Source of the DNA: a virus | Reading direction: 5' to 3' (one strand) | IMG/VR virus record: IMGVR_UViG_3300028844_003737 | Span: 1-64,000 of that record | DNA length: 64,000 nt | In this document: positions 3,928-22,005 of the stretch, piece by piece | How positions within the stretch are numbered: position 1 is the first letter of the stretch | Layout: each line of letters starts with the position of its first letter | Notes under the pieces: model-generated | Seen by the model: only the letters and a program-made list of their open reading frames with translations | What the model was told of the DNA's origin: nothing | The model's database searches: none | Made by a program: the position numbers and the translations under genes

Positions 3928-4181
3928 TGACAGAAGACCAAAGAGAGCAACTAATAAACTTAAAGAAAGTGAAGTCTAGCCCAAGTTTACCAGAGGATTT
4001 ACAGACAGCAGTAAACTCTTTTATACAGCAAGCTATTATAGTAGGGGAGTATAGATTAGATACGATGCCGCATGAGTATGTTGACAATCTTATATCTACC
4101 ATAGTAAAGTATCCTGAATACAATTTTGTTACAAAAGAATTATTAGAAATTTTAGAAAATGAATTAAAACCTAAACTTTAA
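3927..4181 (+). CDS. Hypothetical protein
   Basis: TAATG coupling to the radical SAM gene. Confidence 0.65.
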   Translation: MTEDQREQLINLKKVKSSPSLPEDLQTAVNSFIQQAIIVGEYRLDTMPHEYVDNLISTIVKYPEYNFVTKELLEILENELKPKL

Positions 4182-4252
4182 CGCAGTATATATTATATTT
4201 ATTACTAAAGGGAAAATCACCGAGTTACTAACTAAAATAGAGGAGAATCCCA

Positions 4253-5083
4253 ATGGATAAATCCAAGGTAAAGACGGTTACACAAATCAAAGCAGACCAA
4301 CCCTGTGAGAATAAAAGACAAGCTCTATCGCAAATCAAAAGAATCGATTGGAGCTCTTTAGAGTTTAGAACACCAAATCAGAAAACATTCTATCGAACTA
4401 TTGGAAGAAACGATGTTACATTTTCAATAGGTCCTGCTGGATGTGGTAAGACATATTTGGCTACACATTATGCTCTAAAGAATCTAGCTCAAGGTAAATA
4501 TGATAAGTTGGTAATTACAAAACCACTGGTAGAAGTAGATGGAGAAAAGATGGGATATTTGCCAGGAGATATTGATGAAAAAACAGCACCATATATGATG
4601 TCGCTGTATTATAATATGGAACAGATTATCGGTAAACAAAGATTAGATGTTCTCAAAAAAGCTGGAGTAGTACAAGTTATTCCTTTGGCTTATATGAGAG
4701 GACTAACACTAACAGATAGTATAGTCGTATTGGATGAGGCGCAAAATGCCACACCATCACAGATAAAAACTTTCGTAACTCGTATAGGACAAGGAAGTAA
4801 ATATATAGTGAATGGCGATTTGATGCAATCTGATATCAAAAATGAAAATGGTTTAGAGGATGCTATCAAAAGATTTACTGGATTACGAAGAGTAGGATTC
4901 AGTCAGTTCGACTTAAGAGATGTTGTAAGACATCCTATTGTCGCTGATATGTTAGAAAGATATCAAGATGACTATGACATTGGAATCCTATCAGCGGAAG
5001 AAACCTTATCTATGTGGATAGAGAGACAGACATATGATGAACCAAAAACAAAAAATCGATATTTTTATAACTTAAGGAACTAA
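4253..5083 (+). CDS. phoH: PhoH-like ATPase
   Basis: GPAGCGKT Walker A, GYLPGD, YMRG, LDEAQN, TRIG, GDLMQSD, VVRH. Confidence 0.95.
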   Translation: MDKSKVKTVTQIKADQPCENKRQALSQIKRIDWSSLEFRTPNQKTFYRTIGRNDVTFSIGPAGCGKTYLATHYALKNLAQGKYDKLVITKPLVEVDGEKMGYLPGDIDEKTAPYMMSLYYNMEQIIGKQRLDVLKKAGVVQVIPLAYMRGLTLTDSIVVLDEAQNATPSQIKTFVTRIGQGSKYIVNGDLMQSDIKNENGLEDAIKRFTGLRRVGFSQFDLRDVVRHPIVADMLERYQDDYDIGILSAEETLSMWIERQTYDEPKTKNRYFYNLRN

Positions 5084-5084
5084 T

Positions 5085-5309
5085 ATGAAAGTACAAGTTG
5101 CAGAAAGAATTCCACCTGGAGATAGATGGAAGATGAATAATACAGTATATGATTCACTAACAGAATGTTTGAATATGATATTCTTAGATAAAGGAGTAAT
5201 GTTTTTTGAAGTTGACGCACAGAATGGAATTATTAGTATTGACGATGGTAAAGAAGCTCCAAAAGCACCTCCAAAGGCTTGGGATTTATATGGGGAAAAG
5301 AGTGGCTAA
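5085..5309 (+). CDS. Hypothetical protein
   Basis: AAGGA RBS; ORF. Confidence 0.7.
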   Translation: MKVQVAERIPPGDRWKMNNTVYDSLTECLNMIFLDKGVMFFEVDAQNGIISIDDGKEAPKAPPKAWDLYGEKSG

Positions 5310-5568
5310 AAGTAAGCAAAATAGAAGAATGAAATCTAATACTGTTTATAATGACGCTGATAATATGGTAATGGTAAAAACTAACGGAGATGAGATAAAT
5401 ATAATCTGCAATTCAGAAAATCAAATGGATGAAGTAGTAAAGCGAATGACTACTGATACTTGTTTATTATCAAGCTACGAAGAGTGGGATGAAGGCAAAG
5501 ATAAAAAATGGATTCTAACCTTTTCTGTATGTGACGAAGAGTTCAAATTTGTTCCTGAATATAATTGA
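5302..5568 (+). CDS. Hypothetical protein (GTG start preferred over 5206)
   Basis: Purine-rich RBS before GTG 5302; avoids a long overlap with the previous gene. Confidence 0.6.
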   Translation: MAKSKQNRRMKSNTVYNDADNMVMVKTNGDEINIICNSENQMDEVVKRMTTDTCLLSSYEEWDEGKDKKWILTFSVCDEEFKFVPEYN

Positions 5569-5615
5569 GGTAATGTTATATTTATAGATGGAAGTCTATC
5601 TTTAGGAGAAAAAAT

Positions 5616-6908
5616 ATGTTAAAGAAAATCTTAATAGGCCTGTTATTGGTCTCTTCATTGTTTGGAGAAAATGAACTTTGGAAGTTTTTTAAATACTCGA
5701 CTGCATATGGTAGTTTTAGTTTAAATGCGCCAAGATATCAAGACGATAGATTTGCTATTACAGGTGGATTGTCAACTGGTAACTTAGTAGTTGAAAGAAC
5801 TGAAAGAGAACTAAAGCCTGATTTTCAAACATCCTTTGGACTTCGTAAAATTGGTAGATTTCAATATGAACCAAAGAGAGGAGTCAAATCAGCTGGTAAA
5901 GGTGGAACTTGGTATGATGGTTCAGAACATAATGCTAATGAAAGTGCTACATTTGGACCTGTAAAAGGTTGGGAGTATCTAATCAAATGGTCAGAAGGTA
6001 GACAGTGGGGTAATGACTATGTAAACCAAGAATATTGGGTAAGATATATTGGTGAGTATTTGATGGGTAAAGTTGGACTAACTGAATTAGGTCTAGAAGA
6101 TATTAGCTATGTTCACGGAGATTTGAGATTACACCTCACACCAGAAGCTCTAAATGATAAACTACATTTTTCTATTGGACTAAAACATAGACAACATCCT
6201 GTATATGGATTTGATGCTATGGTTCTTGATACAACTTGGTATAAGGGACAGTGGTGGAACTTTGCTGAAGATGCTTTTGGTGTTGATGATAATATGTGGT
6301 ATGATCCAACAATGCAAGATGAAGATGGTAATTGGATAAAGAATGAATTATTTGAAATAGACCCCAACACAGGTGAACTTAGAAGAATTGAAGGTTCAGG
6401 ACCATTTTGGAATGAAGGTGGAGAATATTGGGGACATGATTGGTTATGGAGAGATGCTGATGGTCGTATCTTCGCATACACAGATAGAGAATATTTTGTA
6501 TATCACTTTCCAAGAATGTTAGAGGGATACATTGAAGATAAGAAAAAAGATTTAGGATACCAAAGTGAAACATCTTTAGTATTAGGGATAGATTGGTATC
6601 ACTATGGTGAGAACTGGTGGATACATGGTTGGGGTAATTGGTTACCGATGCACTATGGACATACTGATTATGCTTATCATAATGCTGCTCATTATCAAAC
6701 TCATTTAGAAGAAGGTAATGATCCAAGTGAATTTATGTTGATGAAACCAATGTGGCATAGTTGGAATGATTATGATATGGGTGCTATATTAGGAGTTAAG
6801 ATAAAGGATAATATGGGAGTATTTACAGAAGGTAGATATTTATATTATTGGGAAAGGCCGGCTTATGATATAAAGTTCGGTATGAATTATCAATTTGTAG
6901 GATGGTAA
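5616..6908 (+). CDS. Secreted, probable outer-membrane beta-barrel protein
   Basis: Sec signal MLKKILIGLLLVSSLFG; very Trp/Tyr/Gly-rich amphipathic strands; terminal strand YDIKFGMNYQF. Confidence 0.6.
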   Translation: MLKKILIGLLLVSSLFGENELWKFFKYSTAYGSFSLNAPRYQDDRFAITGGLSTGNLVVERTERELKPDFQTSFGLRKIGRFQYEPKRGVKSAGKGGTWYDGSEHNANESATFGPVKGWEYLIKWSEGRQWGNDYVNQEYWVRYIGEYLMGKVGLTELGLEDISYVHGDLRLHLTPEALNDKLHFSIGLKHRQHPVYGFDAMVLDTTWYKGQWWNFAEDAFGVDDNMWYDPTMQDEDGNWIKNELFEIDPNTGELRRIEGSGPFWNEGGEYWGHDWLWRDADGRIFAYTDREYFVYHFPRMLEGYIEDKKKDLGYQSETSLVLGIDWYHYGENWWIHGWGNWLPMHYGHTDYAYHNAAHYQTHLEEGNDPSEFMLMKPMWHSWNDYDMGAILGVKIKDNMGVFTEGRYLYYWERPAYDIKFGMNYQFVGW

Positions 6909-6919
6909 GGAGAACGATT

Positions 6920-6958
6920 ATGTGTGAATGTGAAAATTGCCAATGTGGTAAGAAATAA
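6920..6958 (+). CDS. 12-aa Cys-rich micropeptide MCECENCQCGKK (metallothionein-like)
   Basis: AAGGAG RBS at 6907-6912; fills the gap between two genes; CxCxxCxC. Confidence 0.5.
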   Translation: MCECENCQCGKK

Positions 6959-6973
6959 TAAACGGAGGTGACT

Positions 6974-7168
6974 ATGAAGTCAATACTAACAGGAATACTT
7001 TCTCTTTTTATTTTCTTTGGTGCTGTTCCAAATCTAAACGCTTCAGATATGAAGATGGATAATATGGAAGAAATCAAAAAGAAGAAAAAAAAGAAAGGTA
7101 AGAAAATGAAGAAGGGCAAAAAGAAAGCGAAGAAAGGTTTCTTCTCTAAGCTTATAGGCTCTAAGTAA
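6974..7168 (+). CDS. Small exported Lys-rich protein
   Basis: GGAGG RBS; signal peptide followed by a poly-Lys tail. Confidence 0.7.
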   Translation: MKSILTGILSLFIFFGAVPNLNASDMKMDNMEEIKKKKKKKGKKMKKGKKKAKKGFFSKLIGSK

Positions 7169-7179
7169 GAAAGGTAAGA

Positions 7180-7473
7180 ATGAATAATCCGATAGCAAAG
7201 TTTTATCAATGGCAAGTCTCATCTGGCGCATTAGATGGTTGGACATCATATCATTTAGCAGCTGGTTTGTTTATAGCAAAGGTTGCACAATGGTTAGGTT
7301 GTTCTGATTTTTGGGCTGTGATGTGGGTTGCCATTATCGGTGTCGCTTGGGAAATCTTCGAAGTATATGTAGAAGGTACTGAAGAAACTTATGGCACAAA
7401 GAAGAGATGGGCATATAACACAGGCGCTGACTTATTTGTAGAAATAGCAGCTGCTTGGTGGATGGTTCTGTAA
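7180..7473 (+). CDS. Small multi-pass membrane protein
   Basis: About 3 hydrophobic helices; WEIFE motif. Confidence 0.7.
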   Translation: MNNPIAKFYQWQVSSGALDGWTSYHLAAGLFIAKVAQWLGCSDFWAVMWVAIIGVAWEIFEVYVEGTEETYGTKKRWAYNTGADLFVEIAAAWWMVL

Positions 7474-7586
7474 TGGATAGCTTATCAGTTTGGAATGAAC
7501 TAAGTTATCTAGATGGTATCTTATTTACAGTATGGTTAGGTATACTATACTATGGTAAGTGCTGGATAGATAGCAAATTCAAATAG
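7473..7586 (+). CDS. 37-aa single-TM peptide (MDSLSVWNELSYLDGILFTVWLGILYYGKCWIDSKFK)
   Basis: TAATG coupling; fills the gap; absent from the ORF track. Confidence 0.55.
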   Translation: MDSLSVWNELSYLDGILFTVWLGILYYGKCWIDSKFK

Positions 7587-7592
7587 GAGACT

Positions 7593-8033
7593 ATGATGAT
7601 ATTACAAATTTTATTTTGCTTACTTATAATCCTTTATTGGTTTAGTGAAGGTGTAACCGAAGGTTGGACTTGGAGTACTAAAGCAAGAAAGAATAAGAAT
7701 AAGCTAATACATCCGAACAATGGAAAGAATGGTATATTCGATTATCATATGTGGAGAATATTAGAGAATGTAGGAATATGGGGTGCTGTAATTGTAGCAT
7801 TTTTTATCGAAGCATCGTTTGCTAAATTCTTTTGGTTAGGTGTTGGTAGTTGGTTCATCGGAACATTTTGTTATGAAGCCGCTTTGAATCACGTGAATAA
7901 AGGAACAATTTATAAACCAGTAGATTACAAATGGCATATCTTAGGATACGACATTCCTTGGTGGGGTGGTAAAAAGATTTATATCTTACCAGCTACTGGA
8001 CTAATAGTACTATTGTACGGAATGTGGATATAA
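7593..8033 (+). CDS. Multi-pass membrane protein
   Basis: 4 hydrophobic segments; AGGAG RBS. Confidence 0.7.
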   Translation: MMILQILFCLLIILYWFSEGVTEGWTWSTKARKNKNKLIHPNNGKNGIFDYHMWRILENVGIWGAVIVAFFIEASFAKFFWLGVGSWFIGTFCYEAALNHVNKGTIYKPVDYKWHILGYDIPWWGGKKIYILPATGLIVLLYGMWI

Positions 8034-8179
8034 TGCCAAATAAGAATGCTAAACAGAAAAAACAAAGAAGAGCCGCACTAAATAAAAAGTGGGCTAAAGA
8101 GGGTAGGACTGCTAATCAATATAAAAAGTGGTTAGCAAAAGAAGGAAATAAACCAAATAAAGGATTTGGTAGGAGATAA
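8033..8179 (+). CDS. 48-aa basic peptide (MPNKNAKQKKQRRAALNKKW...)
   Basis: TAATG coupling; fills the gap; absent from the ORF track. Confidence 0.6.
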   Translation: MPNKNAKQKKQRRAALNKKWAKEGRTANQYKKWLAKEGNKPNKGFGRR

Positions 8180-8182
8180 GAA

Positions 8183-8779
8183 ATGAGTTATTATGACATA
8201 TACAATAATCTAAAACTATTTTGTTTGATAGGAATGATATCTTTGTTTACATTTAATTGTGACAGTAGAGATGAAGAGCCATTAGAAGAAAGCATTGAGA
8301 TGTGGGTAAATGGCACAGAGTTTAATGTCCGTGAGTATTACGAAAGTATTACTACATACGGAGCATCATCAGTACAAGAAGATGGTTCTATAAAAAAGAT
8401 ATTTGTACTACACTTTCAAAGAGAAGATGGTAGAGTTACACCTGAGAAAGAACATTATGCTTTGATTATGTATGATAACAATGGACAAGATAATGGTCAA
8501 CTAATAGATACTAAATTATATTTAGGTGGTACTCAAATGGATTCATTATTACTTGAAACTACAAGTGGTAGAATAACATTAGAGATTGTTGGACTATCCG
8601 ATTTTACAGAATTTGCACAAGCATCAATACAAAAGTATGAGGATGGTAAAGTTAGTGGAATCGCAGATGGATACTTTTTCAACCCATATAGAAATGAAAT
8701 GCAACATGGTATAATTATTTTTGATAACTTAGAAGTGGGTACAGATCCTGAGGCTACATTTTACCAAGGAGTATATTAG
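8183..8779 (+). CDS. Putative lipoprotein
   Basis: Hydrophobic stretch ending FTFNC followed by acidic DSRDEE; beta-rich body. Confidence 0.55.
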   Translation: MSYYDIYNNLKLFCLIGMISLFTFNCDSRDEEPLEESIEMWVNGTEFNVREYYESITTYGASSVQEDGSIKKIFVLHFQREDGRVTPEKEHYALIMYDNNGQDNGQLIDTKLYLGGTQMDSLLLETTSGRITLEIVGLSDFTEFAQASIQKYEDGKVSGIADGYFFNPYRNEMQHGIIIFDNLEVGTDPEATFYQGVY

Positions 8780-9462
8780 TGAGTGAAAATGGAATCAAGT
8801 TAGGTCAGTTGTTATGTGATGAAGATGTTATCACAAAAAGACAACTAAGCAAAGCCTTACAAGAACAAGTCAAAGGTAGGAAAGGTACACTTGGTGAGAT
8901 TCTTGTAGATATGGGTGTATGTACATTTGAGGATATTACCGATGCTATGATGAATCACAATTCGGATACTCAAAAACACGAAGAGAAACACGAAGAGATT
9001 CACAAAGAACCTACACCACCACCTACAGTTCAACCTACACTACAGCCCGTAGTAGAAGAACCAAAGGTAATAGAACCAGTAGTAGAAGAACCTATAGAAC
9101 TTTCAGAAGAAAAAGTTATGGGTACAAAGTTTACAATGTCCTTGCAAACATTAGGCGCATTGATTAGTGTAATAGCCGCGGGAGTCGGTGGTTACTATAT
9201 GTTACTACAAGAGATTGAAGAAGCAAAAAATCTTCCCGAACCACCATCTATAGAATCTATATTTGGTGATGAGTATCCATCCAAGCCCGATGGACATAAC
9301 TGGCCTCGTTCATACGAACAATACAAATCACAAGTAGGTGGTTTGCAAGAAGATATGGATGCCGTCTATGAAATAATAGATGAGTACGAAGAGGCTATTG
9401 AAGATTTAGAAAAGCTCGTAGCAAATTTACGAGTTGAAGTTGCAAAGAAAAAGGACAAGTAG
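8779..9462 (+). CDS. MshEN (T2SSE_N-like) domain + Pro/Glu linker + TM helix + coiled coil
   Basis: KLGQLLCDEDVITKRQLSKALQEQ and TLGEILVDMGVCTFEDI match the tandem RLGxxLxxxGxIxxxxLxxxLxxQ motif. Confidence 0.75.
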   Translation: MSENGIKLGQLLCDEDVITKRQLSKALQEQVKGRKGTLGEILVDMGVCTFEDITDAMMNHNSDTQKHEEKHEEIHKEPTPPPTVQPTLQPVVEEPKVIEPVVEEPIELSEEKVMGTKFTMSLQTLGALISVIAAGVGGYYMLLQEIEEAKNLPEPPSIESIFGDEYPSKPDGHNWPRSYEQYKSQVGGLQEDMDAVYEIIDEYEEAIEDLEKLVANLRVEVAKKKDK

Positions 9463-9471
9463 GAGTTACTT

Positions 9472-9846
9472 ATGAAATATTTATTAGGATTATTATTATT
9501 TCTTTCTGTTACTATAGGACAAGTAAATGATAAGAACTTTAAAGAATCTATAAATGGTGGGATGGCTGTCGTAGTAGTTACAGCAGAATGGCAAGAACAA
9601 CCATTTGACGAAGATATTCTAGAAGGAGTAAAAGGATATCAGGATTGTAAAATAGTAAGAATAAAAAGTAAAGAAGCTCCAAAGGTTGTAAAGAAACTTA
9701 GGTTTAGAAACTTTCCATCTATGGCTTTATTCTATGACGGTTCTAAGAAAGAAACTTGGAAGGCTGATATGGATGGTGAGTTGGACATTGATAGTAAAGA
9801 CATAAAAGGTGCTATTGATGATGTACTAGCAGAGGACGTGTTCTAA
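9472..9846 (+). CDS. Secreted thioredoxin-fold protein lacking CxxC
   Basis: Signal peptide; NDKNFKE..VVVTAEW..RFRNFPSMALFYDG pattern. Confidence 0.6.
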   Translation: MKYLLGLLLFLSVTIGQVNDKNFKESINGGMAVVVVTAEWQEQPFDEDILEGVKGYQDCKIVRIKSKEAPKVVKKLRFRNFPSMALFYDGSKKETWKADMDGELDIDSKDIKGAIDDVLAEDVF

Positions 9847-9937
9847 GTCAAAATCTGTAAATATATTCACGTATATCTAATTATTCACACATAAACATAA
9901 TATTTATTATAGACTAACTGAAGATGAGGAGACTGTT

Positions 9938-10279
9938 GTGGAAACTAAAACAATAGAATCCCTTATCGGTGAGTATGGTTGGTTATTTATCGCGGGTGTT
10001 CTAACCCTGTTATTTCAAAGTACTATACAAGAGGCCGTTGATGGGATAATGGTTTTTTTAGGAAACGACTACAATGAAGATGATGTTGTAGAGGTTGATG
10101 GTGATCCAGGTCGTATCGTAAGAGTCGGTATGTGGAAAACTACATTCTTTATATATCATGTCGTAAATGGTAAGATAGTTGGAGGTTCAAAATTAGTAGT
10201 GGCTAATTCTAAACTCAAAGATTTGAAAATAGAAAAACCATTACCAAATTTAGATTTGTCCAAATATGATACAGAGTAA
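9938..10279 (+). CDS. Minimal MscS-family protein (TM + beta domain)
   Basis: TM3-like helix, then YNEDDVVEVDGDPGRIVRVGMWKTTF...VANSKL. Confidence 0.65.
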   Translation: METKTIESLIGEYGWLFIAGVLTLLFQSTIQEAVDGIMVFLGNDYNEDDVVEVDGDPGRIVRVGMWKTTFFIYHVVNGKIVGGSKLVVANSKLKDLKIEKPLPNLDLSKYDTE

Positions 10280-10321
10280 CAAAAGTTTACATATAGATCG
10301 GTAAATTATGTTACACAAGAT

Positions 10322-10346
10322 AGAGTGCTTACGGGCACTCTTTTTT
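10322..10346 (+). terminator. Rho-independent terminator
   Basis: AGAGTGC-TTACGG-GCACTCT followed by a T run. Confidence 0.85.
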
Positions 10347-10365
10347 GTTTAAAATAGTTGCTATC

Positions 10366-10443
10366 GTAAGTCGTTATATATCAACACATAAAATTATTTT
10401 TATTTATTTCTTGAATTTAGCATGCTTTGGTATGGTTATTGTA
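10366..10443 (+). promoter_or_regulatory. IHF-like site plus sigma54 (-24/-12)-like promoter of the pilin genes
   Basis: TAAGTCGTTATATATCAACAC at ~10367-10387; TTGGTATGGTTATTGTA with GG(10429-30)-N10-GT(10441-42). Confidence 0.5.
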
Positions 10444-10503
10444 GTATATAAGTAGAATGAGTCATTAGGACAAATTCAAATTGAATAAATAGGGAGGACT
10501 GAA

Positions 10504-11163
10504 ATGTTCGATATGATAAAAAGATTTTTCAAAAAACTAAATAAAAAGCTTAGAAAGAATACAGGAAACTCACTTGCTGAATTTGCTGTTACTACCGCTA
10601 TGATGGCAACACTTGCTACTACAGCTGCTCCTAAGTTTGGTAATGTTGGTGCTGCTGCTAAAGAGAAGAAGTCAATTGCTAACATTGATAAGATATTAAC
10701 AGTAGCCAACAACTACTACAACCAAGCAGTATCTGAAGAAGGAAAGGGAAGATTTCCTGGACAATCAAAGTATGACCAACCTGTAGGTGGGATTGACTTG
10801 TCAGATGGAGCATATACTGATGAAACTCTTGAAGCATACATTGAAACTATACTTGAACAAAAACAATCATATGAATCTGAATTAGGTGAGTTTGTTTATG
10901 TATTTTCAGCATCTTCTGATGACGATGACGCTTTACAAGATGATTGGATGAACTTAGAAACATCTGTTGGATTCAATTCAGGTGGAGCACTTGACTTCAA
11001 AAAAGACTTTGGTAACAAAGGAATCAAGTCACCATTTCAGGATGGTTCGTATGCTTACTTAGTAATACCAGGAAGTGGTAGTGGAACAGATGCTCAAGCA
11101 CCTGCTCTTGTCGTAATAGACACAGAGAATCCAGGAATGCTATTTAAAACTTTAGTACCTTAA
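10504..11163 (+). CDS. Type IV pilin-like protein with atypical class III signal (G|NSLAE)
   Basis: Basic leader, Gly-1, Glu+5, long apolar helix with Pro22 (AAPKF). Confidence 0.75.
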   Translation: MFDMIKRFFKKLNKKLRKNTGNSLAEFAVTTAMMATLATTAAPKFGNVGAAAKEKKSIANIDKILTVANNYYNQAVSEEGKGRFPGQSKYDQPVGGIDLSDGAYTDETLEAYIETILEQKQSYESELGEFVYVFSASSDDDDALQDDWMNLETSVGFNSGGALDFKKDFGNKGIKSPFQDGSYAYLVIPGSGSGTDAQAPALVVIDTENPGMLFKTLVP

Positions 11164-11198
11164 TTTAATAATAGAAACAATAACCGAAAGGAAAGAAA

Positions 11199-11642
11199 AT
11201 GAAGAACATACTCAAAAACACAAGTAAGGGTTTTACCTTGATTGAATTAGTAATGGTTACAATCATATTGGGAATCTTAGCGGCTGTAGCAATACCTCGT
11301 TATCAACAGACTGTAGATAATGCGGAAGAAGCTGCAGAAAAGACATTTGTCGATATGGTATGGGCTGGATGTGAACAAGAAGCTTCTGAAAGAATAACTG
11401 AGACTGGACTTGAGGCATGGCCTTATAATCCACTAACAGTTATTGGTAGAAGTCGTAACATATCAGTTACATTGTTTGAAGGTGTACCCGATGAAGATAA
11501 CGAATGGCAGTTTAGTGTAGATGCGGCTGGTGAACCAGCAATATTTCATCACAGACGAAACGATGAAATCTATTACTACAAGTACGATTCATTGACATTT
11601 GAGTTGGACGAACTACCTACGCTTTATACAAACGAAGGATAA
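11199..11642 (+). CDS. Type IV pilin / prepilin-type N-methylation protein
   Basis: KG|FTLIELVMVTIILGILAAVAIPRY canonical motif. Confidence 0.92.
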   Translation: MKNILKNTSKGFTLIELVMVTIILGILAAVAIPRYQQTVDNAEEAAEKTFVDMVWAGCEQEASERITETGLEAWPYNPLTVIGRSRNISVTLFEGVPDEDNEWQFSVDAAGEPAIFHHRRNDEIYYYKYDSLTFELDELPTLYTNEG

Positions 11643-11692
11643 TTAATGGGGGAATTTATAACGATTTCCCCTATTTATTATAAAGAGGTATT

Positions 11693-12136
11693 ATGAGATT
11701 AAATCTTACAGATGATATTTTAGAACTTGTATTAGGTGGATTAATAATGGTTACTTTAGGGTTCGTATTCTTTAGAAGTGACGAATCCATTAAAGTACAA
11801 AAAGAACCTACTATTGATGACTTTTATGAGTTCCCACTACAAGCGTGGCAGACCACAGACTTACAAGGTGGAGATTGTATAAAGATTAGATATATGGTTA
11901 CTAAACCAAAGACTCGTTTGATTATGAAAAGCGCTGATGGAATAAGGGTACATATGCAACCAATATCTTTGAGTCCGAGAAAAGGTGAAGATAGAATAGA
12001 AACTTATGTATGGAAACTATATCGTACAGAATGGACAGATAAAATATCACCAGGTGAATATCTTATAATAGTAGGAACCGACCACGATAGGAGACCATCC
12101 AAAACAAACTTATCAATAAAGGTAGATGTATTATGA
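11693..12136 (+). CDS. Membrane-anchored beta-rich (Ig-like) protein
   Basis: N-terminal TM; W....SPGEYLIIV pattern. Confidence 0.5.
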   Translation: MRLNLTDDILELVLGGLIMVTLGFVFFRSDESIKVQKEPTIDDFYEFPLQAWQTTDLQGGDCIKIRYMVTKPKTRLIMKSADGIRVHMQPISLSPRKGEDRIETYVWKLYRTEWTDKISPGEYLIIVGTDHDRRPSKTNLSIKVDVL

Positions 12137-12747
12137 AAAAAACCTTGACTTCTATATTTTTGATGATAGTGATAGTGAACAATCCAATATTTTCACAAGA
12201 AATCAAACGGACATCAGAGTTCAAAAGAGATGTTGCATATGGAATAGAATGTGATGATACAGAATACAGAGATTACAAAGGCTCGCCTGCTTGGAAAGGA
12301 TATGGTGGATGGATATCCGAATGCGATTCAATTCGTACAACACGATTAAATGCTGAGTTTGCTCTTAGGTCAAAAGAAAGACAAAGACAAAAAGCAATTC
12401 AAGATAGCATAGATATTGCAACAGCATCTTTTGATGATATAGACTTAGATGTTATGTGGGAAAATACAGTGTGGGAAGAGATTGACGAAATTACAGAAGT
12501 ATACGGCGAAGTAGAACAAATAACTGCTGTTGCTGGAGTTCGTGGTGCTGAAGCAGAAGATGAAGCATTGAATCATTTATACTATAGAAGAAGTATGAAA
12601 GGCTTAGCTCTAATAGATTTACAAAAAGCTTATGGCAAGTTATCAATCAAAAGGGAAAATCTTATAAAGATAAATCCAAACCATCCTAAATTGGAGAAGA
12701 TAGACAATCTTTTATCTCAATTAAAAATAAAAATGAAAAAAGTATAA
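12133..12747 (+). CDS. Secreted hypothetical protein
   Basis: Signal peptide; AVAGVRGAE motif. Confidence 0.6.
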   Translation: MKKTLTSIFLMIVIVNNPIFSQEIKRTSEFKRDVAYGIECDDTEYRDYKGSPAWKGYGGWISECDSIRTTRLNAEFALRSKERQRQKAIQDSIDIATASFDDIDLDVMWENTVWEEIDEITEVYGEVEQITAVAGVRGAEAEDEALNHLYYRRSMKGLALIDLQKAYGKLSIKRENLIKINPNHPKLEKIDNLLSQLKIKMKKV

Positions 12748-12802
12748 AAAAAATGCGTTTTGAGAATTTTACTATATACATATATATATAAAGTTTTTTG
12801 AC

Positions 12803-13227
12803 AATTTGAAAATTTGAAAAGTGCAGAGAGTAATTAACTCTGTATGGGATTGGTCGAATAATGAGTATACTTGAAGCTCATAAGACAATCTAATGTGAGT
12901 TGTGGTGACTTGGAACTCTGCTGAATGTAGTAGAGGTGTAACGGTCCTCATAGACATATGACACATAATGTACTTTCAGAAATAACAAGATGATTCTTGG
13001 ACTTTGTTGTGGGTAAGGATAAAACTGAAATCCCACCTTGTGGCTGAATAATTTAGTCTCAGAAGAGATAAGGCAATAGCACAGACATTGTAGTCGCTCT
13101 AACGTAGAACTAACCATCTATTAGGAGAACCAAAGTAACTTTTGGGTGTTAGGTACAAAGTTATAATAAATTCTGAGCTGAAAGTTGTAGGTAATCATTA
13201 ATCCTACATCCCCCTAATTTTCAATTT
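12803..13227 (+). ncRNA. Large structured ncRNA (~420 nt), possibly ROOL-like
   Basis: No + strand ORF. Ends pair (TTGAAAATT 12806-14 / AATTTTCAA 13216-24). Internal stems AGAGT/ACTCT, GATT-GTC/GAC-AATC, ATGAG/CTCAT, GTGGG/CCCAC, CCAAA/TTTGG, TGTAGG/CCTACA. Terminator follows. Confidence 0.7.
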
Positions 13228-19676: not shown

Positions 19677-19922
19677 ATGAAAACAGCTAAATACTTTAGT
19701 GCTGTTTGGTGTGGGCCTTGTAAACAATTCAAGCCTATAATGGAAGAGTTATCTAATGAAGGATATAATATAGAGTTTATAGATGGTGATGAGAACAAAC
19801 AAATGGCTATTGATGCTAATATTCGTTCAGTACCAACAACGCTTATTATGGATGGTGATAAAGAAGTAAATCGTATTGTCGGTGTGAGGAGTAAAGAAGA
19901 AATGATCAAGGAACTTTCATAA
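19677..19922 (+). CDS. trx: Thioredoxin
   Basis: WCGPC active site; IRSVPT. Confidence 0.93.
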   Translation: MKTAKYFSAVWCGPCKQFKPIMEELSNEGYNIEFIDGDENKQMAIDANIRSVPTTLIMDGDKEVNRIVGVRSKEEMIKELS

Positions 19923-20515
19923 TGGTATTAGATAGTTTATTGGCTGGTGTAATGCTGTTCAGTTCTTTTGCTGCTCGTACGCCAAATGTACAGCCCAATC
20001 CTGATGATTATGAAGTTAGTGTTGGAATAAGTAATGATAATTTTTATGCTAACAGACAATGGGAAAGAGAACTTGGCGAGTTCTATATAGATGATTTGTT
20101 TTGGTATAAGTTTGACAATGGTATTTATTTCAAACCTGAGTATATGGATAAACAAAGTCAAGATGTAAGGTATCTCAAAATTGATGCAAGACGAAGTTTT
20201 AAAGATTGGTCTTTTGGTTTTACAAGTCGTAACACAAATAAAGATGTATTCAGTAGAAACTTCGTAACATTCGTATCCTTTGGTATGTCTAAAAAGAAAA
20301 AGTATTACAATGATAAAATAGAAGTTGAGGCTACATTTGATGGGTATTTTCCACCAAACGAAGAAGATGGTAGAGATGTATTTGAATTTGAAGATAAATT
20401 CAAAGTATCATATAAAATAACAGAGAAACTTAGGTTGTATAACGTAGGTGAAATATCCAAACTTCAAGGTAACGAATTTTATAAGGCTAAGATAGGTTTT
20501 GAATATTCTTTGTAA
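19922..20515 (+). CDS. Putative small outer-membrane beta-barrel protein
   Basis: Signal-like N-terminus; alternating aromatic strands; C-terminal KAKIGFEYSL. Confidence 0.5.
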   Translation: MVLDSLLAGVMLFSSFAARTPNVQPNPDDYEVSVGISNDNFYANRQWERELGEFYIDDLFWYKFDNGIYFKPEYMDKQSQDVRYLKIDARRSFKDWSFGFTSRNTNKDVFSRNFVTFVSFGMSKKKKYYNDKIEVEATFDGYFPPNEEDGRDVFEFEDKFKVSYKITEKLRLYNVGEISKLQGNEFYKAKIGFEYSL

Positions 20516-20551: not shown

Positions 20552-20866
20552 GTGGGTGAAAAAGATTTGGTAACTAAAGATGCTAGACAAAATCAAAAAC
20601 ATTTTATAAATGTAAAATTAGTAGATCTAATTGAATACAGACAATCACGAAAGTGGTATGTTAGTATTGCTGTTGTAGGTATGTTTGCTGTAATACTCAT
20701 ACTTATGATTTATTTTATGAGCCAAGGTAAAGATGTTACCGATGGATGGAAGGAAATTCTCTTACTAATGTTAGGTGGATTTGTTGGTTCATTTGCTAAG
20801 GTAATAGACTTCTGGTTCAATAATCAAGAGAATGATAATAAACTCTTAGAACACGCAGACGACTAA
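20552..20866 (+). CDS. Two-TM holin-like protein
   Basis: 2 TM helices ending ..VIDFWF; upstream of the endolysin. Confidence 0.5.
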   Translation: MGEKDLVTKDARQNQKHFINVKLVDLIEYRQSRKWYVSIAVVGMFAVILILMIYFMSQGKDVTDGWKEILLLMLGGFVGSFAKVIDFWFNNQENDNKLLEHADD

Positions 20867-21519
20867 TGAATATTGCTACGTTAGCTGGTCATCTAGCATT
20901 TGGACTCATTGGTTTTTCATTCTTAGTCAAAGATATATTTTGGCTTAGAATGGTATCTATAGCTGCGAGTTTATTCTCAGTATTTTATAACTACACCATT
21001 CCAACTGAACCAATGTGGTTAGCTATCAATTGGAACTTTATTTTTATCGCAGTAAATGCTTATCATATAGGAGTTATTTTATATGAGAAGCGAGCGGTAA
21101 AGATGGACTCTAAAAACGAAGAGTTATACCAAACCTTATTTAGTGAGATGACTCCAGTAGAATATCTAAAAGTTAGTAGAGCAGCTAAATGGGAGACAGT
21201 AAAATCAGGAGAACGGCTCATAACACAAGGTATGCCAGTTCCTGATTTGTATCTTATATATAATGGTACAGTAGATGTATTGGTTGATAACAGCACAATA
21301 GCTCAACTAAAAGATGGAGAGTTTGTTGGTGAGATGTCTTTCCTCACAGAAAAAGTAGCTACAGCAACCTGTAAAGTAAAATACGATGCAATATGTTTGG
21401 TTTGGAAACAAAGAGAATTTAAGGAATTACTAAAGCGTAATCCGTCACTATACTTTACTATACAATCTGTATTATCAGCGCAGGTATCAGATAAGTTAGT
21501 AAGTAGTACAAAGAAATAG
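20866..21519 (+). CDS. Popeye-like membrane protein with a cyclic-nucleotide-binding domain
   Basis: 3 TM (KDIFWLR, WN motifs), then CNBD LITQG..LYLIYNGTVDV..GEFVGEMSF..ATAT. Confidence 0.85.
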   Translation: MNIATLAGHLAFGLIGFSFLVKDIFWLRMVSIAASLFSVFYNYTIPTEPMWLAINWNFIFIAVNAYHIGVILYEKRAVKMDSKNEELYQTLFSEMTPVEYLKVSRAAKWETVKSGERLITQGMPVPDLYLIYNGTVDVLVDNSTIAQLKDGEFVGEMSFLTEKVATATCKVKYDAICLVWKQREFKELLKRNPSLYFTIQSVLSAQVSDKLVSSTKK

Positions 21520-21528
21520 GAGATAATA

Positions 21529-22005
21529 ATGTTGACTAAATTTGACGATATAATAGAAGTAGTATTACACCACGAAGGTGGTTATGTAAATGACCCAAAA
21601 GATCCTGGCGGAGAGACTAATTTTGGTATAGCTAAAAGAAGTCATCCTGATGTGGATATAAAAAATCTAACCAAAGAAGGTGCTAAAGAAATTTATTATG
21701 AAACATATTGGTGTGATAATAAAGTACCTCATATGCCAGAAAACCTAAAGCATATTTACTTTGATATGTGTGTTAACCAAGGTAGAGGGCGAGCAGTAAA
21801 GATATTACAGATAGCAGCTAACGCTAAAGGAGCAGATTTGAAAGTAGATGGTGGTATGGGTCCTAAAACTATCGCTGCTATGAGTGGAGTTGAGTTGGAT
21901 AGAGTGAGAGCATATCGTGTTAAGTACTATGCTGATTTAGTTACCCGTAAACCAGATTTAGAAAAATTTTACTTTGGGTGGTTCAGAAGAGCACTGGAAG
22001 TTTAA
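21529..22005 (+). CDS. Endolysin, glycoside hydrolase family 108, with a peptidoglycan-binding domain
   Basis: HEGGYVNDPKDPGGETNFGI; VDGGMGPKT; GWFRR. Confidence 0.92.
   Translation: MLTKFDDIIEVVLHHEGGYVNDPKDPGGETNFGIAKRSHPDVDIKNLTKEGAKEIYYETYWCDNKVPHMPENLKHIYFDMCVNQGRGRAVKILQIAANAKGADLKVDGGMGPKTIAAMSGVELDRVRAYRVKYYADLVTRKPDLEKFYFGWFRRALEV

What the first reader, a model, noticed from the sequence alone, without database searches (positions are those of the whole stretch)
8779..9462. Stand-alone, membrane-tethered MshEN c-di-GMP receptor
Seen: tandem MshEN-like motifs (with R->K and G->D substitutions in the first), a Pro/Glu linker, one TM helix and a coiled coil, with no ATPase domain. It lies ~1 kb from the pilins. 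Inference: a c-di-GMP sponge, a PilB N-domain mimic, or a sensor that transmits cytoplasmic c-di-GMP across the membrane.
Basis: partly seen in the sequence, partly recalled or inferred. Interest (0 to 1): 0.75.

Follow-up and report, generated by a model that had tools for sequence, protein, structure and literature searches.

The report
Phage membrane protein with MshEN-type sensor head
An abundant uncultured ocean phage encodes an inner-membrane, spanin-like protein whose cytoplasmic end copies the c-di-GMP-binding module of pilus motor ATPases, probably as a regulatory input to a late envelope or lysis module rather than to the nearby pilin genes.

Summary
ORF 8779-9462 (227 aa) has an N-terminal MshEN_N-type four-helix module, an acidic Pro/Glu linker, one TM helix and a periplasmic coiled coil, with no ATPase domain. 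The family profile matches PilF at E 4.9e-11. Foldseek's top seven hits are c-di-GMP-bound MshE/PilF domains.

- **Motifs:** motif I is intact (K7, L8, G9, L23, L27, Q30). Motif II is degenerate at two ligand positions (T37, H60), the kind of change that abolishes binding in PilF GSPII-A.
- **Pilins:** they occur in only 23 of 80 related loci and lie behind a terminator.
- **Conserved partners:** an outer-membrane barrel (76/80) and a redox-dead thioredoxin-like protein (77/80).
- **Lysis link:** holin-like genes lie within 3.5 kb in 38 of 51 relatives.
- **Short forms:** versions of 112-113 aa without the MshEN head sit in lysis cassettes of other phages.
- **H-NOX:** in deeper relatives the head keeps near-canonical motifs and overlaps a phage H-NOX gas-sensor gene.

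My best reading is the inner-membrane subunit of a late, lysis-linked envelope module with an added sensor head. The scan has noted this module before on other DNA. Host and ligand remain unknown.

The parts
8779..9462 (+). Target ORF, 227 aa: MshEN_N head, acidic linker, TM helix, periplasmic motif and coiled coil
8797..8868 (+). Motif I (residues 7-30). K7, L8, G9, L23, L27 and Q30 are all kept. Position 10 is Asp (D16).
   Evidence: Q30 is invariant in 64/64 distinct family domains.
8887..8958 (+). Motif II (residues 37-60). L38, G39, I53 and M57 are kept. Position 1 is T37 and position 24 is H60, both degenerate.
   Evidence: literature
8965..9114 (+). Disordered acidic Pro/Glu linker (residues 63-112), hypervariable in the family (12-49 aa)
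9130..9210 (+). Single TM helix (about residues 118-144, glycine-rich), preceded by the conserved ELSE..TKF juxtamembrane motif
9247..9348 (+). Conserved periplasmic motif EYPSKPxGHNWPRSYEQYKxQVGGLQEDMD (residues 157-190; 19 of 34 positions invariant)
9307..9450 (+). Long C-terminal helix / coiled coil (residues 177-224)
   Evidence: pLDDT 83-92; only weak coiled-coil matches
5576..5585 (+). Candidate late-promoter motif TTATATTTAT, 40 nt upstream of the operon's first gene
   Evidence: All 5 copies in the window are intergenic, 30-60 nt before a start. The others precede the holin-like gene, a baseplate block, a fibre-like ORF and phoH.
5616..6908 (+). Outer-membrane beta-barrel protein, first gene of the operon; conserved with the target in 76/80 loci
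   Evidence: 137 Foldseek hits at E<=1e-3; all 40 listed are OM barrels
8183..8779 (+). Probable lipoprotein whose stop overlaps the target's start. It is the only lipobox ORF found in the 64-kb window.
   Evidence: (63/80 loci)
9472..9846 (+). Exported thioredoxin-fold protein without the CxxC motif; conserved directly downstream in 77/80 loci and also next to the short forms
10322..10351 (+). Intrinsic terminator (8-bp stem, T run) that closes the envelope transcription unit before the pilin genes
20552..20866 (+). Holin-like 2-TM gene with the same upstream motif. Its homologues lie within 3.5 kb of the target in many relatives.
20866..21519 (+). 3-TM POPDC-like protein with a cNMP-binding domain. 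It lies directly after the Trx-like gene in many relatives.
21529..22005 (+). GH108 endolysin with a PG_binding_3 domain
   Evidence: E 7e-25; phrog_315, E 3e-48

Best explanation
The gene encodes a bitopic inner-membrane protein of an uncultured marine myovirus, with the N-terminus inside the cell and the C-terminus outside.

Its ancestral core is the juxtamembrane motif, the TM helix and the periplasmic motif with its coiled coil. This core works with an exported, redox-dead thioredoxin-fold protein. In this lineage it also works with an outer-membrane barrel and a lipoprotein. Together they form a late-expressed, spanin-like trans-envelope module linked to the lysis genes.

The cytoplasmic MshEN_N four-helix module is an add-on regulatory input, joined through a floppy acidic linker. 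In deeper-branching relatives this head keeps near-canonical c-di-GMP motifs and is translationally coupled to a phage H-NOX haem gas sensor. In the window's clade the second half-site has decayed (T37, H60). Here it probably binds c-di-GMP weakly or not at all, and may read another ligand or a protein partner.

Shown: the fold, the architecture, the synteny and the motif states. Inferred: the topology, the late timing, the role in outer-membrane disruption or lysis control, and the regulatory direction.
For: Fold and sequence identity of the head.

Conserved gene set in 80 IMG/VR loci:
- OM barrel in 76 loci
- thioredoxin-like gene in 77
- lipoprotein in 63
- pilins in only 23

OM barrel fold.

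Lysis linkage:
- Of 51 loci with at least 3.5 kb downstream, 38 have a holin-like, POPDC/cNMP or GTA_holin_3TM-like gene within 3.5 kb. Ten of the 13 without one have pilins inserted there.
- In the window those genes abut a GH108 endolysin.
- The envelope operon, the holin-like gene and structural blocks share the intergenic motif [AT]TATATTTAT.

Modularity of the head:
- Short forms of 112-113 aa lack it but keep the thioredoxin-like partner, in other phage lineages.
- In L092 the short form sits with small lipoproteins, small TM proteins and a phrog_465 endolysin (E 3e-31) 1.6 kb downstream.
- In L094 the next gene weakly matches Rz-like spanin phrog_739 (E 2.6e-4).

Signal-input role:
- An H-NOX gene (PF07700, E 1e-44 to 1e-46; E 4e-42 to Nostoc H-NOX, with the proximal His and YxSxR kept) overlaps the start of MshEN-bearing forms. 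This holds for all 8 distinct cases and never for short forms.
- Conservation is high in the head (0.78), the pre-TM motif (0.81) and the periplasmic motif (0.84), but only 0.35 in the linker.
Against: - There is no experimental datum; every functional step rests on genomic context.
- In the window itself the module lies 11 kb from the holin-like gene and the endolysin.
- No significant sequence match to any named spanin family was found. The target reaches only E 0.032 to phrog_1009, a family of unknown function.
- The lipoprotein is large (about 175 aa mature), lies upstream and is dispensable (63/80 loci). This is unlike classical o-spanins.
- An OM barrel and a Trx-fold partner have no precedent in spanin systems.
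- The periplasmic part is short (82 aa).
- The holin assignments rest on topology and on sub-threshold GTA_holin_3TM hits.
- The late-promoter motif is inferred from 5 sites only and also precedes phoH.
Confidence: 0.48

Rival explanations
1. It is a true c-di-GMP (or other cyclic dinucleotide) receptor. The head binds the nucleotide at physiological concentrations, and that binding is the point of the protein, either as a membrane-tethered sponge or as a sensor relaying host c-di-GMP status to the periplasm.
For: - Half-site I is fully canonical under the extended consensus (R/K/L)LG...L...L..Q.
- Q30, a solvent-exposed ligand contact, is invariant in 64/64 family domains.
- G9 and G39, whose mutation kills binding in MshE, are invariant.
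- Isolated MshEN_N binds c-di-GMP at 0.35 uM without MshEN_C.
- Changes to charged residues cost no more than 5-fold in MshE.
- H-NOX, which in bacteria typically controls c-di-GMP enzymes (my own knowledge), is coupled to relatives whose motif II is K...Q.
- MshEN can also bind cGAMP, according to a section heading in PMC5013675; I did not read that section.
Against: - Motif II has T37 and H60. In PilF GSPII-A, Ser at that first position alone abolishes binding, and Gln at the last position must be restored.
- Both motifs fail the relaxed published pattern.
- In non-H-NOX family members, motif II position 24 drifts freely (S19, H17, N7, T6, Q2 and others), so it is not under ligand constraint.
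- No GGDEF gene was found in this record or in five 120-131 kb relatives.
- If the host is SAR11, as one MAG binning hints, only 5 of 151 Pelagibacterales genomes carry a GGDEF gene.
Confidence: 0.2
2. It is an envelope-remodelling or superinfection-exclusion device unrelated to lysis. The OM barrel, the lipoprotein, this protein and the Trx-like protein alter the host surface or block incoming phage DNA during infection.
For: - The island is rich in exported proteins: OM barrel, lipoprotein, Trx-fold protein, an MscS-like protein and pilins.
- Pilin morons are inserted next to it in some lineages.
- Phages are known to re-fit host surfaces and to block type IV pili (PMC11656802).
Against: - The short forms lie between tail genes and an endolysin, together with small TM proteins.
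- The upstream motif is shared with the holin-like and structural genes.
- The phage looks lytic, and exclusion functions are typically early or lysogenic.
Confidence: 0.17
3. It is a PilB/MshE N-domain mimic. The tethered head competes with the host pilus or T2SS ATPase for a partner (PilM, PilC, PilZ or GspL-type), and so controls assembly of the phage-encoded pilins.
For: - The best sequence matches are PilB/PilF N-domains.
- Two pilin-like genes lie 1 kb downstream.
- Phage peptides that target PilB exist, such as Tip, Aqs1 and Zip.
Against: - Pilins are present in only 23/80 loci and in 17 of 51 well-flanked loci. They appear to be an insertion between the module and the holin-like genes.
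- They form a separate transcription unit behind a terminator.
- The head lacks MshEN_C, the subdomain that Pfam PF05157 models.
- No MshEN_N-like sequence was found in 150 other Pelagibacterales genomes. That is relevant only if SAR11 is the host.
Confidence: 0.07

Closest known systems
MshEN_N subdomain (N-terminal four-helix half of the MshEN/GSPII domain) of V. cholerae MshE and T. thermophilus PilF GSPII-B/C
   Same: Both have tandem 24-residue motifs forming two helical hairpins. Identity is 28-37% and rmsd 1.5-1.9 A. The hydrophobic guanine platform, both glycines and the motif I Gln are kept. Lys at position 1 is also found in the tightest natural binders.
   Different: There is no MshEN_C subdomain and no ATPase. 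The module is tethered to the membrane through a disordered linker, and it is viral. Motif II lacks the stacking residue and the Gln (T37, H60). The spacer is 6 residues rather than 5, and position 10 of motif I is Asp.
PilF GSPII-A, the natural non-binding MshEN-like domain (PMC12002112)
   Same: It shows the same kind of decay: a small hydroxyl residue at motif II position 1 (Ser39 there, Thr37 here) and a non-Gln residue at a motif end (His33/Arg62 there, His60 here). The fold is unaffected.
   Different: GSPII-A also blocks binding through an N-cap and through contacts with its C-subdomain, neither of which exists here. Here the motif I Gln is intact.
Two-component spanins (lambda Rz/Rz1, T4 PseT.3/PseT.2)
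   Same: Both are bitopic inner-membrane proteins with a periplasmic coiled coil. The gene is coupled to a lipoprotein gene. The family lies in or beside lysis cassettes in relatives. Short forms of 112-113 aa sit next to small lipoproteins with about 32-45 aa mature length.
   Different: There is no significant homology to named spanin families. The protein has a 117-aa cytoplasmic extension with a sensor-type domain. A Trx-fold partner and an OM barrel are obligatory. The lipoprotein lies upstream, is large and is optional. The periplasmic part is short.
E. coli NfrB, an inner-membrane glycosyltransferase with a C-terminal MshEN domain (PMC8669469, PMC8669472)
   Same: It is a membrane-bound protein carrying an MshEN c-di-GMP module outside the ATPase context. 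A membrane-tethered MshEN is therefore not unprecedented (titles and abstracts).
   Different: NfrB is a host enzyme with a complete, binding-competent MshEN domain. The output here is a periplasmic coiled coil, not a catalytic domain.
Bacterial H-NOX signalling pairs (H-NOX with a diguanylate cyclase/phosphodiesterase or a histidine kinase)
   Same: In relatives, a haem H-NOX gene is translationally coupled to the signalling partner gene.
   Different: The partner here is a receptor-type MshEN module on a membrane anchor, not an enzyme. The pair is phage-encoded. It is absent from the window itself. That bacterial H-NOX proteins regulate c-di-GMP enzymes is from my own knowledge, not tested here.

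Membership tests
MshEN_N (c-di-GMP-binding half of MshEN/GSPII) | Two tandem 24-residue motifs folding into a compact four-helix module, homologous to MshE/PilB N-termini | tested here: met
   phmmer against PDB gives E 4.1e-8 to PilF. The family profile gives 4.9e-11 to PilF and 1.5e-5 to MshE. AF2 predicts four helices. Foldseek's top 7 hits are MshE/PilF at rmsd 1.5-1.9 A.
MshEN_N (c-di-GMP-binding half of MshEN/GSPII) | Six key ligand residues in motif I: (R/K/L) L G ... L ... L .. Q | tested here: met
   K7, L8, G9, L23, L27 and Q30 are present. Q30 and G9 are invariant in the family. K is accepted at position 1.
MshEN_N (c-di-GMP-binding half of MshEN/GSPII) | Six key ligand residues in motif II | tested here: not met
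   The residues are T37, L38, G39, I53, M57 and H60. Positions 1 and 24 deviate. The analogous Ser/His/Arg in PilF GSPII-A prevent binding. The relaxed pattern [RKPN]hGxxhhxx[GAS]hh....h...h..[QNKRYWST] fails in both motifs.
MshEN_N (c-di-GMP-binding half of MshEN/GSPII) | Binds c-di-GMP with micromolar or better affinity | not testable with these tools
   This needs ITC, DRaCALA or DSF on residues 1-62.
Full MshEN / T2SSE_N domain (Pfam PF05157) | MshEN_C alpha/beta subdomain that the Pfam model covers | tested here: not met
   No PF05157 hit at E<=1. In the control P0238 the model maps only to residues 121-204, after the helical motifs. The target goes straight from helix 4 into a disordered linker.
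PilB/MshE/GspE secretion ATPases | C-terminal T2SSE ATPase domain | tested here: not met
   The protein is 227 aa with no such domain. Five related records of 120-131 kb have no PF00437 hit above the cut-off.
i-spanin of a two-component spanin | N-in/C-out single-pass inner-membrane protein with a periplasmic coiled coil | tested here: inconclusive
   One TM helix and a long C-terminal helix are predicted. The topology is inferred from the cytoplasmic nature of MshEN and the lack of a signal peptide, not measured.
i-spanin of a two-component spanin | Adjacent or overlapping outer-membrane lipoprotein gene | tested here: inconclusive
   A lipobox ORF at 8183-8779 overlaps the start. It is large, lies upstream and is present in 63/80 loci. 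Small lipoproteins flank the short forms in L090 and L092.
i-spanin of a two-component spanin | Location in a lysis cassette with holin and endolysin | tested here: inconclusive
   In the window it is 11 kb from the holin-like gene and the GH108 endolysin. In relatives, 38 of 51 loci have holin-like genes within 3.5 kb. In L092 a phrog_465 endolysin lies 1.6 kb downstream.
i-spanin of a two-component spanin | Sequence membership in a described spanin family | tested here: not met
   PHROGs gives only phrog_1009 (unknown function) at E 0.032. The short form has no spanin hit. Only a neighbouring ORF in L094 hits Rz-like phrog_739, at E 2.6e-4.

The most novel reading that the evidence does not exclude
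This would be the first sensor-coupled spanin-type system. A widespread group of ocean phages would gate the last, outer-membrane step of lysis, or another trans-envelope act, through a cytoplasmic MshEN head. That head would read host c-di-GMP or another cyclic dinucleotide. In some lineages it would also read NO or O2, through a phage-encoded H-NOX protein docked on it. A neighbouring cNMP-binding membrane protein would provide a second nucleotide input. Lysis timing in abundant marine phages would then be wired to host second messengers.
Probability: 0.15. Interest if true: 0.85.

Novelty: new variant of a known kind. Interest (0 to 1): 0.6.

Why it matters
Spanins and other outer-membrane disruptors are regarded as constitutive end-effectors of phage lysis; to my knowledge none is known to carry a cytoplasmic sensor domain. 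This family is large. It has 2,825 homologues at 90% clustering and more than 100 IMG/VR contigs. The 30 nearest ESM Atlas clusters are all viral.

If the MshEN head, and H-NOX in some lineages, controls an envelope step, host signalling state would feed directly into burst timing of abundant ocean phages. The family also offers a natural series of MshEN_N variants, from near-canonical to decayed, for testing the sequence rules of c-di-GMP recognition. On the practical side, the work shows that Pfam's 'MshEN' model does not see the ligand-binding half of the domain.

Tried and rejected
- **Pfam on the target:** no PF05157 hit, only a weak partial DUF4388 match (E 0.057). This is explained by the model's coverage, so I rejected it as a refutation.
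- **PHROGs on the target:** nothing significant.
- **tblastn against 50,697 isolate phage records:** no match for the target or the OM barrel. The nearest isolates by baseplate and CobS are Microcystis phage Mel-JY01 and Flavobacterium phage immuto. megablast of 12 kb found no match.
- **The look-up of encoding contigs:** Contexts of distant relatives came from viral-contig scans instead.
- **Alignment A1:** too diverse for a locus scan.
- **Host identification failed.**
  - The only genome-collection hit is a 72-kb phage-like contig binned in a Ca. Pelagibacter TMED166 MAG.
  - There is no nucleotide similarity to 150 Pelagibacterales genomes beyond phoH.
  - No MshEN_N-like match was found in those genomes.
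  - Cluster look-up gave no taxonomy.
  - SAR406 and Flavobacteria, proposed in earlier scan notes, could not be tested.
- **GGDEF, T2SSE and HNOB searches:** negative in this record or in five large relatives. These records are only 40-72% complete.
- **Expression:** two 'metatranscriptomic' runs cover the whole region like a DNA run and hold 67-71 kb contigs, so DNA is present and no transcription can be claimed. A third run has only short pieces from relatives.
- **ESM Atlas:** only unnamed viral clusters.
- **First lipobox rule:** it was too strict and missed the known lipoprotein, so I loosened it.
- **Literature:** searches found no paper describing a phage-encoded MshEN protein among those listed. 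That is no proof that none exists.
Full report
**What the window is.** The window is part of an IMG/VR virus record of 74,387 b that CheckV rates about 40% complete. GC is about 33% and essentially all genes lie on the + strand. It encodes a T4-type baseplate wedge protein, and its nearest isolates are Microcystis phage Mel-JY01 (48% aa) and Flavobacterium phage immuto (41%). It also carries PhoH, CobS/CobT-like genes and a GH108 endolysin. It is therefore an uncultured marine myovirus with no close cultured relative.

**The observation.** The ORF at 8779-9462 starts at GTG, 7 nt after an AAGGAG site, and overlaps the stop of the upstream gene.
- Residues 7-30 and 37-60 are two MshEN-type 24-residue motifs.
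- Residues 63-112 form an acidic Pro/Glu linker.
- Residues 118-144 form the only hydrophobic segment.
- The C-terminus is one long helix.

The similarity to MshEN is real. phmmer against PDB gives E 4.1e-8 to T. thermophilus PilF and 2e-4 to 9e-4 to Geobacter PilB. A nine-sequence family profile gives 4.9e-11 to PilF, 5.4e-10 to PilB and 1.5e-5 to V. cholerae MshE. Foldseek's seven best PDB hits for the AF2 model are all c-di-GMP-bound MshE or PilF GSPII-B domains, at rmsd 1.5-1.9 A over 54-57 columns and 28-37% identity. Their E-values are only 0.08-0.4 because the module is short.

**Why there is no Pfam hit.** Pfam gave no PF05157 hit, but the test is not valid. In a bacterial PilB-like fragment (P0238, 45% identical to the target's head), PF05157 'MshEN' matched residues 121-204 only. 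That is the alpha/beta MshEN_C subdomain. The two helical motif pairs in front of it drew only partial DUF4388 hits. The target therefore has MshEN_N alone. According to Wang et al. 2016, the isolated MshEN_N subdomain binds c-di-GMP by itself with KD 0.35 uM (PMC5013675).

**Can this copy bind c-di-GMP?**
- Motif I is canonical at all six ligand positions (K7, L8, G9, L23, L27, Q30).
- Lys at position 1 is native to the tightest binders, and the consensus has been extended to (R/K/L)LG (PMC11731258).
- G->D at position 10 is a turn residue, not a ligand contact. Geobacter PilB has Asn there.
- Motif II has T37 at position 1 and H60 at position 24.
- In the naturally non-binding PilF GSPII-A, Ser at motif II position 1 alone abolishes binding in a resurrected construct. 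Gln must also be restored at the motif ends (PMC12002112).
- Both motifs fail the relaxed pattern Wang et al. used for database searches.
- Against this, changes to charged residues in MshE cost no more than five-fold, whereas the hydrophobic platform and the two glycines matter most. Those are all kept here.

Across 64 distinct family domains the motif I Gln is invariant. Motif II position 1 is T35/S9/K8/A3/R1, and position 24 drifts (S19, H17, N7, T6, Q2 and others) in members without H-NOX. I put binding at useful affinity by the window protein at about 20%.

**Context: not the pilins.** I fetched 80 related IMG/VR loci.
- The OM-barrel gene is present in 76.
- The Trx-like gene is present in 77.
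- The lipoprotein gene is present in 63.
- Each pilin gene is present in only 23.

The OM-barrel assignment rests on a signal peptide, a C-terminal aromatic residue, a beta-rich AF2 model (pLDDT 68.7, pTM 0.62) and 137 Foldseek hits at E<=1e-3; all 40 listed are outer-membrane barrels. The Trx-like protein has a signal peptide and no CxxC motif. A strong terminator at 10322-10341 ends the unit before the pilin genes. No PilB-type ATPase was found in five related records of 120-131 kb.

**Context: lysis genes.** In the window, a holin-like 2-TM gene (20552-20866), a POPDC-like cNMP-binding 3-TM protein (20866-21519) and a GH108 endolysin (21529-22005) form a block. Homologues of the first two lie directly after the Trx-like gene in many relatives.
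- Of 51 loci with at least 3.5 kb downstream, 38 have such a gene, or a GTA_holin_3TM-like ORF (sub-threshold, E 3e-4 to 1e-3), within 3.5 kb.
- Ten of the 13 without one have pilins there instead.

The pilin island therefore looks like an insertion between the envelope module and the lysis-associated genes. The motif [AT]TATATTTAT occurs five times on the + strand, always intergenic and 30-60 nt before a start. The starts are phoH, the OM barrel, the holin-like gene, a baseplate block and a large fibre-like ORF. It is a candidate late promoter shared by the module and the lysis and structural genes.

**Modularity of the head.** Scans with distant members revealed two further forms.
- Short forms of 112-113 aa begin exactly at the conserved pre-TM motif and lack the head and linker. 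They are still followed by the Trx-like gene. They lie after tail genes in a different phage lineage (L089-L093).
- In L092 they are flanked by small lipoproteins and small TM proteins. An endolysin (phrog_465, E 3e-31) lies 1.6 kb downstream.
- In L094 and L095, a head-plus-TM form is followed by a 94-aa TM coiled-coil ORF. That ORF weakly matches Rz-like spanin phrog_739 (E 2.6e-4) and phrog_1009. The window protein also touches phrog_1009, at E 0.032.

The membrane and periplasmic half is therefore the core, and the MshEN head is an add-on. Conservation agrees: head 0.78, pre-TM motif 0.81, periplasmic motif 0.84 and linker 0.35, with linker length varying from 12 to 49 aa.

**H-NOX coupling.** In 15 viral contigs, a 182-183-aa H-NOX gene lies immediately upstream of the head-bearing gene and overlaps its start.
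- It matches PF07700 at E 1e-44 to 1e-46 and Nostoc Alr2278 H-NOX at E 4e-42.
- The proximal His and the YxSxR motif are conserved.
- This arrangement holds wherever downstream sequence is held, in 8 distinct domain sequences, and is never seen with short forms.
- These heads have motif II position 1 as K in 6 of 8 and position 24 as Q in 5 of 8, which is near-canonical.
- H-NOX is absent from the window and from five large relatives.

This is the strongest evidence that the head is a signal-input domain. It also suggests the window's clade carries a decayed derivative.

**Host and second messenger.** The host remains unknown.
- The only hit in the genome collection is a phage-like contig binned in a Ca. 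Pelagibacter MAG.
- GGDEF genes occur in 5 of 151 Pelagibacterales genomes sampled.
- No GGDEF gene was found in this record or in five relatives.
- Earlier scan notes propose SAR406 or Flavobacteria; I could not test either.
- The acidic run after the lipobox Cys in the lipoproteins resembles Bacteroidota-type export signals. This comparison is from my own knowledge.

**Verdict.** The domain identity is supported. The c-di-GMP and pilus readings are weakened. The best-supported reading is the inner-membrane subunit of a late, lysis-linked, spanin-like envelope module with a sensor head (confidence about 0.5). All functional steps are inferred from genomics.

Earlier follow-ups in this scan reached a similar 'envelope triad linked to lysis' reading on other genomes. 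I re-derived the synteny and the lysis linkage independently. New here are the short forms, the H-NOX coupling, the clade-specific decay of motif II and the point about Pfam coverage.

Noticed in passing
L085:6447-6992, L094:6460-7008, L084:339-887, L062/L079:7450-8001, L097-L111: Phage-encoded H-NOX haem sensor genes occur in 15 viral contigs. They match PF07700 at E about 1e-45 and are closest to Nostoc Alr2278. Each overlaps the start of an MshEN_N-TM gene.
   Followed up: partly
window 20866-21519: A 3-TM POPDC-like protein with a cNMP-binding domain (PF00027 E 9e-15, PF04831 E 2.5e-13) sits between a holin-like gene and the GH108 endolysin. In many relatives it sits directly after the Trx-like gene of the module.
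   Followed up: partly
window 4193, 5576, 20520, 40111, 59924: The motif [AT]TATATTTAT occurs five times on the + strand, always intergenic and 30-60 nt before a gene start. It is a candidate late promoter. A variant, ATAATATTTAT, lies at 9897, before the gene at 9938.
   Followed up: partly
window 10504-11163 and 11199-11642: There are two pilin-like genes. One has a canonical N_methyl signal (PF07963 E 3e-7). They are present in only 23/80 related loci and seem inserted between the envelope module and the holin-like genes.
   Followed up: partly
window 8024-8179: A 51-aa, very basic peptide (MPNKNAKQKKQRR...) has homologues in 31 of 80 related loci, at varying positions inside or next to the module. 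Its function is unknown.
   Followed up: no
window 6920-6958: A 12-codon ORF, MCECENCQCGKK, with its own AGGAG lies just after the OM-barrel gene. An earlier scan note also flagged it.
   Followed up: no
L082 (NHHP01000001.1, 71,886 b): A contig with the same phage synteny (OM barrel, target, Trx-like, holin-like, cNMP) is filed in a 'Ca. Pelagibacter sp. TMED166' MAG. It is probably a phage contig binned with a host-like genome. It is a weak host hint or contamination.
   Followed up: partly
window 19922-20515: A 197-aa ORF with a signal-peptide-like N-terminus and a beta-rich, aromatic sequence lies directly upstream of the holin-like gene. It has no family hit and may be a second small outer-membrane protein.
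   Followed up: no
L005:12140-14653, L046:9967-12846, L082:10202-12086: In relatives, arrays of small ORFs that all start MIKLKDLL... follow the module.
   Followed up: no
runs X9, X13 laid on window 4000-13000: Two runs labelled metatranscriptomic hold 67-71 kb contigs and cover the region evenly, like a DNA run. They evidently contain phage DNA and cannot be used as evidence of expression.
   Followed up: yes
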